DNA from: a virus
IMG/VR virus record: IMGVR_UViG_3300047409_000726
Coordinates: 1-64,000 of that record
DNA length: 64,000 nt
Reading direction: 5' to 3' (one strand)
Under the pieces are notes generated by a model, which saw nothing but the letters and a program-made list of their open reading frames with translations, had not been told where the DNA came from and ran no database searches. Position 1 is the stretch's first letter. Each line of letters begins with the position of its first letter. Both the position numbers and the translations under genes were made by a program. Positions 39,593 to 43,216 of this stretch are shown in pieces.

Positions 39593-40120
39593 AAATTCTT
39601 GTGCCGTTTTGGTCTTGTGACGTTCCCGTACCGGTGTGCTCGTCAAGATCACGTGACGGGTTGCGGTATGCGGTTGGACACTATTTTTGGAAGGACAGAT
39701 TGAAATTTATTCACCATCGCATACCGTGTACACCGTGAAAATCCACCGCTCCACCGGCTACATTCACATCGATCTCTCCGGGGCCGAGGCTGCGGTGCTC
39801 TTCGAAGAGCTCGAGAACGTCCGCGGCGGATCGAAGCTCCCGAAGGTTCGTCAGGTGTGCGAGGGGCTCAAGGAGTCGCTCGGGCTCAATGCTCTGATGG
39901 CCGTGTCGGAGTCGTACAGGCGGAAATACGCCCCCAGGAAGACACTATCGCTCGTCGTCAACGACGCGCCACGTGCCGATCACGCTCAACACGAAAAGCA
40001 CGTGAGCCACGATCGCGGTGGCGATGGCGACGTGAGTACGAGGGACGCCACTGACGACCCACGCGAATGCGAGCGTGAGCCCTTGAACGATCGCTAGCCC
40101 CGTCAGGCGTGTGGCGCGGC

Positions 40121-40348
40121 TCATGCCTCAGGTGCTCCGGGGATCTTCCGGTTCGTGATTATTTTGAGCGCGATCGAGAGCAGCGGGCCCTCGATGTGTT
40201 TCGGTACCAAGATGCCGAGTTCGCGCTGTGCCCGATCAAGCGCAGCGCCGAATGTTAGGTTGTTGTCGGCCGTGAGAATGTCGATGACCCTCTCGAGCAC
40301 CGGTGCGCAGTGTCGCGCGTCGCGTAGCGCTTCTTCGACGGCTGTCAC
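40121..40348 (-). CDS. Small hypothetical protein, last gene of the putative Cas7-like operon
   Basis: GTG at 40348 overlaps the upstream stop. Confidence 0.45.
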   Translation of the reverse strand: MTAVEEALRDARHCAPVLERVIDILTADNNLTFGAALDRAQRELGILVPKHIEGPLLSIALKIITNRKIPGAPEA

Positions 40349-40842
40349 TAGTCGTCCCCGTTGAACAACACGACCTGCGCAGCCTGCGCGCAGGCGTCCT
40401 GAAGCGATTCGCCTTGAAAGAACCCCTTCACTTCGTAGCCGTCGTTGGAGAGGCTTGCCTCGAACATCTTGATCTCTCGCTTGCCTTCGGCGTTGACGCC
40501 CATCTCGATGGATCGGACGCCGGCCTCGCGTGCACGGAGCCACCGGTCGAGCGCTTCGAAGATCCGCACAGCTCCCTCGCCCTCGGCTTGGCGTATCTCG
40601 GCTTCTCGTGACTCGACCTGCGCGCGTACGGGCACGATGGTGACCGTTTTCATACGGAAGATGAGCTTACACGCTAGGTCGAGGTAGGCGCTCTCAGGGT
40701 TCGCTCGAACGTATAGCTCGTCGATCTCGTTGATGGTGTCGCGGAGCGCTTCTGCGAGCTCGTGAATCACGTCCTCGGACGTCATGGGAGCGGGGCGAGG
40801 GGGCGAGGAGTGTTTCGAGCGGGTAAGCGGGGCGTCGTTCAT
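40348..40842 (-). CDS. Hypothetical protein immediately downstream of the pentamer array
   Basis: RBS AAAGGAA lies in the tail of array unit A; 164 aa. Confidence 0.55.
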   Translation of the reverse strand: MNDAPLTRSKHSSPPRPAPMTSEDVIHELAEALRDTINEIDELYVRANPESAYLDLACKLIFRMKTVTIVPVRAQVESREAEIRQAEGEGAVRIFEALDRWLRAREAGVRSIEMGVNAEGKREIKMFEASLSNDGYEVKGFFQGESLQDACAQAAQVVLFNGDD

Positions 40843-40871
40843 CTTGGGTTCCTTTGTGTGTAGAAACGGTC

Positions 40872-41049
40872 CTTTGGTTTGCTCGGCTGTGCGCAGCGAT
40901 GCGTAGCCCGGCGGCGCGCCGATTCGGGTGGCTTTGCTGAGCGCTGCTTTGTTGAGCGGTGCGTGGCGCTGCGGTGCCGAGACTTGCCGAGCATTGCTTT
41001 ACAACGCGACGTTGCGCCATGCTGAGCACCGTACCGCTCAGCGGAGTTT
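40872..41049 (-). repeat. 5-nt periodic tract A (34 pentamers), candidate guide RNA
   Basis: + strand 40880-41049: GC in register in 26/34 pentamers, G in 33/34; bounded by CTTTGGTTTGC. Confidence 0.9.
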
Positions 41050-41097
41050 GTTGGGTTTGAAAAAAAGCTGTTCGGCACGGGGTTCGTTGAAAGTGTC

Positions 41098-41210
41098 CTT
41101 TGGTTTGCTTGGCAGTGCGTCACGACGCGGGGCAGGGTCGCGCGACGATCCGCTTCCCGGTGCACTGATCTGCTTGACCGTGCTGGGCACAGCGCCGCAC
41201 TGCGATGAGG
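41098..41210 (-). repeat. 5-nt periodic tract B (21 pentamers), candidate guide RNA
   Basis: + strand 41106-41210: GC in register in 14/21; bounded by CTTTGGTTTGC. Confidence 0.85.
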
Positions 41211-41254
41211 GTTTTGAAAAAGTTGTTTGTGCGCGGGTTGTGCGAAAAGTGTGA

Positions 41255-41337
41255 CTTTGATTTGCTGGGCTGAGCACGACTGAGCTTCGCGTCGCGTCGC
41301 TGGGCCGGGTTTCGCGAGGCGCTGCGTCGCTGGGTTT
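41255..41337 (-). repeat. 5-nt periodic tract C (15 pentamers), candidate guide RNA
   Basis: + strand 41263-41337: GC in register in 12/15; bounded by CTTTGATTTGC; starts 5 nt after the Cas7-like stop. Confidence 0.85.
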
Positions 41338-41342
41338 CTTTT

Positions 41343-41987
41343 CTAGGCCACCTTCCGTTTCATCGCAGCCGTCCCGTCGACGCAGTCCCATGCGACGACG
41401 TGGAAGAGCCCAAACGGCCCGCGCTTCTCAGGGCGGAAGGCGCCGATACCTAGTTGTTCTCCGGCCTCGGTGAGGAGCTGTCTCACGAACGCCGGATCCA
41501 TGAGGTTCTCGTTGATGCGGATCGTGCACTTCAACGTCCAGCGTTCGATGCGTGGACGGTGAGCGAGCAGTGCGCCTTTCGTGCTTGGGTTGACGACCCG
41601 GCGACTGTCCACCTCGTAGGTCGTGATGCGCGTTTTCCGGTCTTCATTGTAGAGCGGTGCAAGCTCGTCGAGAACGAGCACCGCGGCCGGCACGCGATAC
41701 TTCATCGACTTGCGGGTGCCCTTCTCCTTGTGGTTGCCGCCGGCTTCGACGATCGCGCGTTGTACACCGGTGCCAGGGAACACGAGTGGGGAGTCGAGCT
41801 TCCCGTTCTCGCGGTAGCAGCTCTTCTCGGCGATCTCTCGCGGAGTGAGTTGCTTGACGGCTGTGATAGATGGCCGAGTGCCTGGGCCACTGCCGCCGGG
41901 TACGTTTTCGGCTGCTTCTGTTCCAAACGCCGCCATAAGTAGCGGCATCGTTCCTTCGATCCAAGTTTCTGTGTATTGAAAAGACAC
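41343..41987 (-). CDS. Solo Cas7/RAMP-like RNA-binding protein
   Basis: 214 aa. N-terminal strand I.G..PLL; P...V..AI.EA helix; RP.I..W strand; C-terminal glycine-rich loop L.EAG..LGIG.FRP.K.G.FG.F.V, typical of RAMP/Cas7 folds; RBS AAAGGAG before GTG. Confidence 0.72.
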   Translation of the reverse strand: MSFQYTETWIEGTMPLLMAAFGTEAAENVPGGSGPGTRPSITAVKQLTPREIAEKSCYRENGKLDSPLVFPGTGVQRAIVEAGGNHKEKGTRKSMKYRVPAAVLVLDELAPLYNEDRKTRITTYEVDSRRVVNPSTKGALLAHRPRIERWTLKCTIRINENLMDPAFVRQLLTEAGEQLGIGAFRPEKRGPFGLFHVVAWDCVDGTAAMKRKVA

Positions 41988-42014
41988 TGAGATTCTCCTT
42001 TGGTTGAAAATGAG

Positions 42015-42152
42015 CTTTGGTTTGCGCGGCTGAGCGTGGCGATGCGGTGCGCTGCGAGGCGTAGATCTGCTGAGGGCCGCTCTGTTGTGCGGGGGCGCGC
42101 TAGGCGGGGCGGCGATATGCTTTGCCGGGGCCTGCCCTGCGGCGCGGTGAAT
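42015..42152 (-). repeat. 5-nt periodic tract D (26 pentamers) in the leader of the Cas7-like gene, candidate guide RNA
   Basis: + strand 42023-42152: G in register in 26/26, GC in 19/26; bounded by CTTTGGTTTGC. Confidence 0.9.
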
Positions 42153-42698
42153 TTAGGTGAACGACCTTCCTCTCTCGCCGATGGCGTTCGCGAAGAGTGC
42201 AGCAACGACGCCGACGAACAGGCCGCCGATGTGGGCACCGACACTGACGTCGCCACCGTTGCCGGTTAGTGCCTGCCAAGTGCTGACAGCGCAAAAGGCG
42301 AAAGCGAATCCGATGAATCGGCGGTCGACCGCTACGGAGTACGTGACCAGGCCGCAGACAGCCCCGGAGGCGCCTACCATCGGGATTGAAGAGCCTGAAG
42401 CTACGATAATGTGGAGAGCGGCTCCGGCGACCGCTGCGAGGGCGTAGAGGCAGAGGAACCGAGCGCCCCCGATGACCCTCTCGACCAGGCTGCCGAAAAC
42501 GGCCAAAAAGGCCATGTTACAGCCCAGGTGAACGAGGGTCCTAGGGTCGTGCAGGAAGGAGTAGGTGAGGAGCGAGCCCAGGCCCGGATGGGCCGGAACT
42601 AGGCCGAATTTCTCGCAGACCGGCATCCCGCCACTCGAGAGCTCGAGGGCGTAAACGGCCGCGTTCAGCGTCACGAGAAGGAGGGTCACGAGGGGCAT
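42153..42698 (-). CDS. Rhomboid intramembrane serine protease
   Basis: FLH..HL..NM, GASGA (catalytic Ser), AHIGG (catalytic His), multiple TM helices. Confidence 0.9.
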   Translation of the reverse strand: MPLVTLLLVTLNAAVYALELSSGGMPVCEKFGLVPAHPGLGSLLTYSFLHDPRTLVHLGCNMAFLAVFGSLVERVIGGARFLCLYALAAVAGAALHIIVASGSSIPMVGASGAVCGLVTYSVAVDRRFIGFAFAFCAVSTWQALTGNGGDVSVGAHIGGLFVGVVAALFANAIGERGRSFT

Positions 42699-42722
42699 AT
42701 GGGGTAGACGGATACCATACGA

Positions 42723-42785
42723 GGGTATTCAAGGTCAATCATTCTTTAGACGGCTGTTGACGTTGAATACCCGGCGTGGTAGGGT
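42723..42785. promoter_or_regulatory. Back-to-back sigma70-like promoters forming a 16-bp inverted repeat
   Basis: TTGACCTTGAATACCC (minus, 42738-42723) and TTGACGTTGAATACCC (plus, 42757-42772), each followed by TGGTA; plus side TTGACG-17-TAGGGT. Confidence 0.65.
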
Positions 42786-43216
42786 CCGTCTGCTCTGCCA
42801 TGACCTTCACAGGAGACCCAATGCCCAAACGCCCAAACGGTCGCTATTCGGGCGTCGAACCGACCGGCACCCCCGCGGCGGTCGACCGGGCGCTCAAGAA
42901 GAACTCGAGGGACGACATGCGGGGCTACGACACGGACGCCCACGCTATCGCGAAGGTGCTCGTTCGCCACTACGGCGACGAGGCCGATGCGGTGCTCAAG
43001 CGCACGTTGGAGCTCCTTGGGGACGCACGGAGAACGAAGCGATGACCGACCCACGCAAGCCTCAAACCAAAGACGGCGCCGTGGCCTTCGTGTCCGCCGT
43101 GCTCCGAAACGAGCCAGCGCTTCAGTCGCCGGACTTCAAGGTCGCGATGGATCTCAGCGAGTGTTTCGACATTCGCGCGAAGGACTTACTCGAGTACCGA
43201 AAGGGGATGGTTGAAA

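What the first reader, a model, noticed from the sequence alone, without database searches (positions are those of the whole stretch)
41050..41262. Conserved inter-unit linkers and end motif suggest processing into separate RNAs
In gene sense all four tracts end in GCAAA(C/T)CAAAG followed by a possible mini-hairpin (AAAG-GACA-CTTT, AAAG-TCACA-CTTT, AAAG-CTCA-TTTT). The C-B and B-A linkers are homologous: TCACACTTTTCGCACAACCCGCGCACAAACAACTTTTTCAAAACC versus GACACTTTCAACGAACCCCGTGCCGAACAGCTTTTTTTCAAACCC. These behave like the repeat or handle of an array and imply that units arose by duplication and then diversified at the variable positions and in length.
Basis: partly seen in the sequence, partly recalled or inferred. 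Interest (0 to 1): 0.7.

Follow-up and report, generated by a model that had tools for sequence, protein, structure and literature searches.

The report
Guide-RNA tails of a phage VIPR array
The conserved end motif and linkers are real and are best read as the 3' tails and spacers between four guide RNAs of a phage VIPR system, a CRISPR-related DNA silencer published in 2026, so this is a new example of a known kind with an unusually unstructured tail.

Summary
GCAAAYCAAAG occurs exactly four times in the complete 80,264-bp phage genome (0.04 expected). All four copies lie on the minus (gene-sense) strand, each at the end of a 5-nt-periodic tract. The C-B and B-A linkers are homologous: 3 of 2000 shuffles reach their alignment score.

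The 214-aa gene inside the tracts is a homologue of SUSP1 Vipr by three tests: hhalign probability 96.9%, a shared phrog_4652 hit, and SUSP1 Vipr as the only PDB sequence hit. In 78 of 81 homologue loci, period-5 tracts flank the gene in gene sense.

So the tracts are VIPR guide RNAs (vrRNAs). The motif plus the following U-run is their conserved 3' tail, and the rest of each linker is the spacer or leader of the next unit. The published SUSP1 locus has the same layout of one upstream and three downstream vrRNAs.

All ten tails in this phage and three close relatives keep YCAAAG, 1-5 nt, then a T-run. The proposed mini-hairpin is not supported: folding energies match shuffles and there is no covariation. 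Cutting into separate RNAs is inferred by analogy only, because no RNA run was available.

This scan has already noted VIPR arrays in at least 22 other genomes. Verdict: a new member of a known kind, of modest interest.

The parts
42026..42145 (-). vrRNA D repeat tract, 24 units of G-C-N-N-x, upstream of vipr
   Evidence: Pentamer register and composition. With NN taken as the two bases after GC, its first 15 units match the antisense of the VGASG..FGL segment of other phages' rhomboid genes.
42015..42025 (-). End motif of D: two invariant pseudo-units GCAAA, CCAAA, then G
   Evidence: Exact motif hit.
41988..42014 (-). Tail of D: CTCA, U-run TTTTC (42010-42006), then the AAGGAG ribosome-binding site of vipr (42000-41995)
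   Evidence: Sequence. The weak fold pairs the U-run with the ribosome-binding site: -2.9 kcal/mol, z -0.34.
41343..41987 (-). vipr, a 214-aa Cas7-like RAMP protein
   Evidence: hhalign against SUSP1 Vipr: probability 96.9%, E 1.5e-10. phrog_4652 hit. PDB profile search finds only 36pp_D, SUSP1 Vipr. The AlphaFold2 model (pLDDT 81.6) matches Csm3/Cas7 chains.
41266..41335 (-). vrRNA C repeat tract, 14 units
41255..41265 (-). End motif of C (GCAAATCAAAG)
41209..41254 (-). C-B linker: first U-run CTTTTC (41249-41244), a G-poor A/C-rich spacer, second U-run CTTTTTC (41222-41216), then AAAACCC (41215-41209) as the leader of unit B
   Evidence: Homologous to the B-A linker. Motif plus linker is 9% G and 56% AT. 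No stable fold: -3.1 kcal/mol, z -1.3.
41109..41203 (-). vrRNA B repeat tract, 19 units
41098..41108 (-). End motif of B
41038..41097 (-). B-A linker: CTTTC (41093-41089), a G-poor spacer, CTTTTTTTC (41067-41059), AAACCC (41058-41053), then the leader of unit A
   Evidence: Homology with relative L001 resumes near 41057, about 20 nt before tract A.
40883..41037 (-). vrRNA A repeat tract, 31 units, shared at about 93% identity with relative L001
40872..40882 (-). End motif of A
40843..40871 (-). Tail of A: GACCG, TTTC, then the AAGGAA ribosome-binding site of the 164-aa ORF that starts at 40842
   Evidence: Sequence. Weak pairing of the U-run with the ribosome-binding site: -4.6 kcal/mol, z -1.3.

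Best explanation
The region is the guide-RNA array of a phage VIPR system. The operon on the minus strand runs rhomboid, vrRNA D, vipr, vrRNAs C, B and A, then orf164. Each vrRNA is a run of 5-nt units read as x-G-C-N-N. G and C correspond to the G2 and Y3 positions of the published GGY motif. The G1 position is relaxed. NN are the programmable bases. Each tract ends in two invariant pseudo-units (GCAAA, YCAAA), a G, 1-5 nt and a U-run. This is the clade's version of the vrRNA 3' tail, the constant part that marks where the Vipr filament ends and that lets the cognate Vipr recognise its RNA. In the two internal linkers, the remaining G-poor, A/C/U-rich stretch and the (A)AAACCC block are the spacer and 5' leader of the next unit.

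Shown here: the motif's presence, its specificity and its conservation; homology of the protein to SUSP1 Vipr; the strand and the unit register.

Inferred by analogy with SUSP1: Vipr protomers coat each tract one per unit, and the primary transcript ends up as four separate ribonucleoproteins.

My own inference, about even odds: because these tails and linkers do not fold, the cuts are made by host single-strand-specific RNases (RNase E/J type plus exonuclease trimming) in the exposed A/U-rich linkers, rather than by a ribozyme, a tRNA-like module or a structured cap.
For: Motif specificity: 4 exact copies against 0.042 expected, all at tract ends on one strand.

Conservation: 10 of 10 tails in the window, L001, L080 and L081 keep YCAAAG, 1-5 nt and T3-7, while the tracts themselves differ.

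Linker homology: (3 of 2000 shuffles).

VIPR membership. In 78 of 81 homologue loci, period-5 tracts sit beside the gene in gene sense, mostly as GGC-NN.

Strand and register: loci with Asp at the SUSP1 D177-equivalent residue have G at the G1 position in 66-95% of units. The four loci with Ala there have G in only 12-33%. These are the window, L001, L080 and the independent, distant L066. D177 and H17 are the published G1 contacts (paper .720927). With NN taken as the two bases after GC, tract D matches rhomboid genes of two other phages at 35/52 and 30/52 bases, against a shuffle maximum of 29. The alternative register gives 27, which equals the shuffle mean.

Published parallel: SUSP1 has one vrRNA upstream and three downstream, each with a constant tail of about 40 nt, seen as separate RNAs of about 100 nt that co-purify with Vipr. 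I read the SUSP1 locus directly and its linkers also consist of a tail followed by a conserved leader.

Lack of structure: tails fold at -1.7 to -4.6 kcal/mol with z from -1.3 to +1.3, while a relative's tail (L002) folds at -23.1 kcal/mol with z -4.4. There is no Rfam match even at E <= 1 and no tRNA-like element. Motif-plus-linker and tail segments are 9-17% G and 52-61% AT, against 26-34% AT in the tracts.

Modularity: in a close relative, tracts C and B (41049-41343) are replaced by 149 nt with break points at unit borders.
Against: There is no RNA evidence for this phage. No RNA run holds the region, so the transcript ends, the cutting and Vipr binding are all inferred.

The papers I could read do not say how type II arrays are separated, so the RNase step has no direct precedent.

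Only three close relatives were available and the motif's 5' half never varies, so covariation cannot confirm or exclude short pairings.

The AAACCC leader is seen only in this window, not in L001 or L080.

The VIPR type could not be assigned, because no supplementary tables are held, and orf164 shows no similarity to vap1.
Confidence: 0.8

Rival explanations
1. Each vrRNA is its own transcription unit. The second half of each linker would hold a promoter and the U-run would act as a terminator, so nothing is cut from a precursor.
For: U-runs follow tracts more often than expected: TTTT lies within 35 nt of the tract end in 31% of 255 tails, against 7% of background windows. Some relatives (L004) have a true GC hairpin plus T-run after the tract.
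Against: No sigma-70-like promoter was found anywhere in 39900-43100 on either strand. The terminator-like hits match the shuffle expectation (3 found, 2.9 expected) and none is a minus-strand hit in a linker. The U-runs here have no preceding GC-rich hairpin. Tails D and A run straight into the ribosome-binding sites of vipr and orf164, which argues for read-through transcription.
Confidence: 0.12
2. The tail is structured after all. A mini-hairpin (AAAG / loop / YUUU), or a pseudoknot using the second U-run, would cap the 3' end as the SUSP1 pseudoknot does.
For: A-runs and U-runs are complementary, and 87.5% of cells in the proposed 4-bp helix can pair. SUSP1 tails form a cap that was seen by cryo-EM.
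Against: Sliding the 3' partner by +1 pairs 90% of cells and by +2 pairs 80%, so the pairing reflects run composition rather than register, and no pair changes on both sides. The minimum-energy folds do not differ from shuffles, and the mini-hairpin appears as the minimum-energy fold in only one of six tails. L080's downstream tail has a single base between AAAG and the T-run. Tails D, A, L001-d1 and L080 lack a second U-run.
Confidence: 0.08
3. The conserved blocks act mainly at the DNA level, as recombination or cassette-exchange sites or as binding sites for a regulator, and not as RNA handles.
For: Unit-wise replacement between close relatives has break points at unit borders.
Against: Homologous recombination between any conserved RNA handle would give the same pattern, as it does in CRISPR arrays. 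The strong strand asymmetry (G 9-17% on the sense strand) and the fixed position 3' of every tract fit an RNA element. This reading does not exclude the main one.
Confidence: 0.04
4. The RNA is made from the plus strand, so CTTTGRTTTGC is a 5' handle and the tracts read GC-K-NN.
For: GC is its own reverse complement, so the tracts of this clade alone do not give the strand.
Against: In about 70 homologue loci the fixed dinucleotide is GG on the gene-sense strand, not CC. Only the sense reading places G and C at the G2 and Y3 positions and accounts for the Asp-to-Ala change at the G1 contact. On the plus strand, only 2 of the 4 tracts would have a conserved 3' flank.
Confidence: 0.03

Closest known systems
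Type II VIPR system of Escherichia phage SUSP1 (Vipr YP_009199429.1, vap1, four vrRNAs); bioRxiv 10.64898/2026.04.26.720920, .720927 and 2026.10.15.759431
   Same: The lone RAMP protein is homologous. The guides have 5-nt periodicity with two programmable bases per unit. There is one vrRNA upstream and three downstream of vipr, all in gene sense. Each tract is followed by a constant 3' tail, and the linkers consist of a tail plus a conserved leader. Both systems are phage-borne. A guide aimed at a gene of rival phages fits the published inter-phage role.
   Different: The unit is x-G-C-N-N with a free G1 position; this corresponds to the paper's 'YNNNG' class. Both G1-contacting residues are Ala. 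The tail is a short A/U-rich sequence without a stable fold, not a hairpin-pseudoknot of about 40 nt. Tracts are longer, 14-31 units against the published 9-16. The array sits directly after vipr, with no vap1 homologue between them. A rhomboid protease gene is the conserved upstream neighbour.
Other VIPR array designs: staggered arrays, hammerhead-interspersed arrays and single-vrRNA loci (same paper, figs S18-S20); non-canonical repeat motifs (bioRxiv 10.64898/2026.10.21.760802)
   Same: They show that repeat consensus and separators differ between VIPR clades. In relatives fetched here, the tails range from strong hairpins (L002, L004, L012) to short U-rich strings such as GGAACCATTTTC (L075, L076) and GGAAGTTTTCAAGGTTTTC (L077).
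   Different: This locus has no ribozyme, no overlapping units and no tRNA-like module. The linkers are 46-60 nt of unstructured sequence.
CRISPR repeat-spacer arrays and crRNA handles
   Same: A constant element punctuates variable guides and probably defines the ribonucleoprotein boundaries. Units are exchanged as cassettes between strains. The protein has a Cas7-like fold.
   Different: There are no 23-50-nt direct repeats, no spacers of uniform length and no cas6, cas1 or cas2. The guide is itself a 5-nt repeat and reads DNA with a one-base skip.

Membership tests
VIPR system | Vipr protein: a minimal RAMP (RRM core, G-loop, thumb) homologous to SUSP1 Vipr | tested here: met
   hhalign of A1 against SUSP1 Vipr: probability 96.9%, E 1.5e-10, 180 columns. 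Both proteins hit phrog_4652. The PDB profile search finds only 36pp_D, SUSP1 Vipr, at 1.1e-8. The model matches Csm3/Cas7. The thumb Arg (SUSP1 R138) aligns with invariant R144.
VIPR system | vrRNA made of tandem 5-nt units, with a fixed trinucleotide (GGY or a related consensus) alternating with a variable NN | tested here: met
   Over 88 units, G is 81% and C is 94% at the fixed positions, the next two positions are free, and the fifth is A/C-biased. This is a related consensus of the YNNNG type listed in the paper. The loss of G1 tracks Asp-to-Ala at the G1 contact.
VIPR system | An invariable 3' tail after each repeat tract | tested here: met
   GCAAAYCAAAG plus a U-run follows all 4 tracts. 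YCAAAG plus a T-run follows 10 of 10 tracts in the clade.
VIPR system | [quoted passage not shown] | tested here: not met
   Minimum free energies are -1.7 to -4.6 kcal/mol with z from -1.3 to +1.3. There is no covariation, and slid controls pair equally well. This feature belongs to one clade, not to the family; the P. fulva complex also lacked the pseudoknot marker.
VIPR system | An accessory vap gene in the locus | tested here: inconclusive
   orf164 (40842-40348) has no Pfam or PHROG hit and no similarity to SUSP1 vap1. It is shared only with L001. The rhomboid gene is the conserved neighbour in all 4 close loci.
VIPR system | Encoded by a virus or provirus | tested here: met
   The genome is an 80,264-bp virus record with direct terminal repeats, estimated complete. 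74 homologue loci lie on IMG/VR viral contigs.
VIPR system | vrRNAs accumulate as separate small RNAs and co-purify with Vipr | not testable with these tools
   No RNA run holds the region.
VIPR system | The NN bases match natural targets under the one-base-skip rule | tested here: inconclusive
   Tract D matches rhomboid genes in L205 (35/52 bases) and L206 (30/52), against a shuffle maximum of 29 in 30 shuffles. The match covers the first 15 units. This is below the paper's 80% criterion over the full length. No target was found for C, B or A among the loci held.
Hammerhead-interspersed or tRNA-like-separated VIPR arrays | A ribozyme or tRNA-like fold between units | tested here: not met
   Rfam at gathering threshold and at E <= 1 finds nothing. 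ARAGORN finds nothing. The linkers are too G-poor to form such folds.
CRISPR array | Direct repeats of 23-50 nt separated by unique spacers of similar length, with cas genes | tested here: not met
   The units are 70-155-nt periodic tracts. Only 11 nt plus a U-run is shared by all four tails, and the two internal linkers share about 65% identity. No cas1, cas2 or cas6 was detected among the neighbours scanned.

The most novel reading that the evidence does not exclude
In this clade the vrRNA tail is a structure-free, sequence-read handle. Two invariant pseudo-units (GCAAA, YCAAA) would be bound by the last Vipr protomers. The following U-run would pair with the ribosome-binding site of the next gene (vipr after D, orf164 after A). 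Loading of Vipr onto the upstream guide would then feed back on translation, and unit separation would be left entirely to host single-strand RNases.
Probability: 0.12. Interest if true: 0.5.

Novelty: new member of a known kind. Interest (0 to 1): 0.3.

Why it matters
The report fixes the anatomy of a divergent VIPR locus from a high-GC soil phage: the strand, the unit register, the unit borders, and the tail and leader blocks. That anatomy is needed to decode its guides correctly.

It also shows that VIPR tails need not be folded caps. That raises a practical question for VIPR biology and engineering: what defines the guide ends and cognate loading when no structure is present?

The link found in passing between the Asp-to-Ala change at the G1 contact and the loss of G1 in the repeat gives a simple rule for predicting the protein-RNA code. 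The published structures make that rule directly testable.

Tried and rejected
- **Rfam.** Gathering threshold on the whole window and E <= 1 on 40700-42300 gave no family, so there is no ribozyme or known RNA.
- **ARAGORN on 40500-42500.** No tRNA-like element.
- **Promoter and terminator scan of 39900-43100.** No promoter-like site, and terminator-like sites at chance level.
- **blastn of the locus against GenBank phages.** No match. tblastn of the protein there gave only E >= 0.2.
- **IMG/VR scan for the motif plus TTT.** The pattern is too short and AT-rich to be specific, so these loci were not pursued.
- **RNA evidence.** No RNA holder is listed. The DNA contigs that were laid only showed the relative's unit replacement.
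- **First structure prediction, without an alignment.** Unusable, pLDDT 34.5. It was redone with alignment A1.
- **The look-up of encoding contigs.** These would have been the best material for tail covariation.
- **Metagenome scan.** Gave only two short close loci.
- **Target search for tracts C, B and A** in the loci held, under four registers: nothing above shuffles.
- **Supplementary tables of the VIPR paper.** Not held, so no type assignment was possible.
- **Ribosome-binding site reading of CCAAAGGA.** Rejected because no start codon follows at a suitable distance in the internal linkers.

Full report
**What is there.** On the minus strand the window carries, in order:
- a rhomboid protease gene (42698-42153; Pfam PF01694);
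- a 5-nt-periodic tract D;
- a 214-aa gene (41987-41343);
- three further tracts C, B and A;
- a 164-aa ORF (40842-40348).

Written in the register that starts each pentamer with GC, the tracts hold 24, 14, 19 and 31 units without a slip. Over these 88 units, position 1 is G in 81%, position 2 is C in 94%, positions 3 and 4 are free, and position 5 is mildly A/C-biased.

**The observation.** Every tract ends in GCAAAYCAAAG. These are the only four exact copies in the complete 80,264-bp phage genome. All four lie on the minus strand, and 0.042 copies are expected from composition. In pentamer register the motif is two invariant pseudo-units (GCAAA, YCAAA) plus G. It is followed by 4-5 nt and a short U-run.

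**What the system is.** VIPR is described in three 2026 preprints. A lone RAMP protein, Vipr, polymerises one protomer per unit on a vrRNA made of GGY/NN pentamers. An invariable 3' tail of about 40 nt follows the repeats and forms a pseudoknot in the SUSP1 clade. Phage SUSP1 makes one vrRNA upstream of vipr and three downstream.

The 214-aa protein has no Pfam hit, but several tests place it in this family:
- A profile of its 26 homologues aligns to SUSP1 Vipr with probability 96.9% and E 1.5e-10.
- It shares phrog_4652 with SUSP1 Vipr.
- A PDB sequence search with the profile returns a single hit, 36pp_D 'SUSP1 Vipr protein'.
- Its AlphaFold2 model (pLDDT 81.6) matches Csm3/Cas7 chains.
- Of 81 loci encoding homologues, 78 have period-5 tracts next to the gene on the gene-sense strand, mostly as GGC-NN.

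The locus is therefore a VIPR system and the tracts are vrRNAs.

**Strand and register.** GC is its own reverse complement, so I used the relatives to set the strand and the register. In them the fixed bases are GG followed by a pyrimidine on the sense strand. Mapping G and C of this clade onto the G2 and Y3 positions leaves the G1 position relaxed.

This fits the protein. The published G1 contacts of SUSP1 Vipr are H17 and D177, and both align with Ala in this protein. Across loci, an Asp at that position goes with G at the G1 position in 66-95% of units. The four loci with Ala have G in only 12-33%. These are the window, L001, L080 and, independently, the distant L066.

A target test agrees. 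With NN taken as the two bases after GC, tract D matches the antisense of the catalytic VGASG..FGL segment of rhomboid genes in two other phages, at 35/52 and 30/52 bases against a shuffle maximum of 29.

So the RNA is gene-sense, and the motif and linkers lie 3' of each tract, where the published tail lies.

**Conservation.** Three close relatives (84-99% protein identity) give six more tails. All ten keep YCAAAG, 1-5 nt and a T-run of 3-7, usually preceded by one or two xCAAA pseudo-units, while the guide tracts differ. The linker before tract A is also recognisably homologous in L001.

More distant relatives use other tails:
- strong covarying hairpins between constant flanks in L002 (-23.1 kcal/mol, z -4.4);
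- terminator-like hairpins in L004;
- short U-rich strings in L075, L076 and L077.

A T-run within 35 nt of the tract end is about four times enriched across the family, 31% against 7%. SUSP1's own linkers, which I read directly, also consist of a tail plus a conserved leader.

**Structure.** The proposed mini-hairpin is not supported. The tails fold at -1.7 to -4.6 kcal/mol with z-scores from -1.3 to +1.3, so they do not differ from shuffles. On the ten-tail alignment the 4-bp helix pairs in 87.5% of cells, but sliding the partner by one column pairs 90%, and no pair changes on both sides. One relative has a single base where the loop should be. On the sense strand, motif-plus-linker and tail segments are 9-17% G and 52-61% AT, against 26-34% AT in the tracts. 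No ribozyme, tRNA-like element, promoter or terminator was detected.

**How it most likely works.**
- Shown: the motif plus U-run is a clade-specific constant element placed exactly where the VIPR tail lies, and the linkers are homologous modules.
- Inferred from SUSP1: Vipr coats each tract, the tail marks the 3' end and gives cognate recognition, and four separate ribonucleoproteins result.
- My inference, about even odds: because nothing here folds, separation is done by host single-strand RNases acting on the exposed A/U-rich, G-poor linkers, with exonuclease trimming back to the protein-protected edge.

Independent promoters for each unit are the main rival and are not excluded.

**Evolution.** A close relative (L001, and a contig in run X2) keeps vipr and tract A at about 93% identity. 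In it, the block 41049-41343 (tracts C and B) is replaced by one different unit of 149 nt, and 343 nt are inserted after tail A. Units therefore turn over as cassettes with break points at unit borders.

**Limits.**
- No RNA data exist for this phage.
- The VIPR type could not be assigned.

**Verdict.** The finding is real and correctly sensed as a 'handle', but it belongs to a system already published and already met by this scan in at least 22 other genomes. The local features of note are the unfolded tail and the relaxed G1 position.

Noticed in passing
window 41343-41987 (-), residues A19 and A183; loci L001-L081: The two residues that contact G1 of the repeat in SUSP1 Vipr (H17 and D177) are both Ala in this protein. 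Across 70+ loci, Asp at the D177 position goes with G at the G1 position in 66-95% of units. The four loci with Ala there have G in only 12-33% of units. These are this clade and, independently, L066. This is covariation between protein and RNA code.
   Followed up: partly
window 42071-42145 (-) compared with L205:1779-1856 and L206:1650-1727: With NN read as the two bases after each GC on the minus strand, the first 15 units of tract D spell the antisense of the rhomboid catalytic segment (VGASG..FGL) of two other phages. The phage's own rhomboid differs just after GASG.
   Followed up: partly
window 41049-41343 and 40842-40868; L001:3145-3822: A relative with about 93% identity replaces tracts C and B by one different unit and carries an extra 343-nt segment, apparently an ORF, between tail A and the orf164 homologue. 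This is cassette-like turnover of guides.
   Followed up: partly
window 42153-42698 (-); L001, L080, L081: A rhomboid protease gene sits directly upstream of the first vrRNA in all four close relatives (45-72% identity), while orf164 is shared only with L001. The rhomboid may be the functional partner gene of this VIPR clade, or simply its target class.
   Followed up: no
window 41988-42010 and 40843-40867 (-); L075:3319-3365, L076:3223-3268: In tails that precede a gene, the U-run (or a CUCC string in L075 and L076) can pair with the ribosome-binding site of the next gene. The energies are weak here (-3 to -5.6 kcal/mol) and no shuffle control was run on the pairing itself.
   Followed up: partly
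window 41016-41037 (-): The first units of tract A form a 7-bp palindrome (GCTGAGC...GCTCAGC) that is conserved in L001. The scan tool listed it as a terminator-like site on the plus strand. It could be a 5' hairpin of vrRNA A or just a reflection of the target sequence.
   Followed up: no
L077:3150-3570, L075:3140-3260: Other clades also end their tracts with constant units (GGCAA GGCAA GG...) followed by short U-rich tails (GGAAGTTTTCAAGGTTTTC; GGAACCATTTTC). Weakly structured tails therefore recur within this Vipr subfamily.
   Followed up: no
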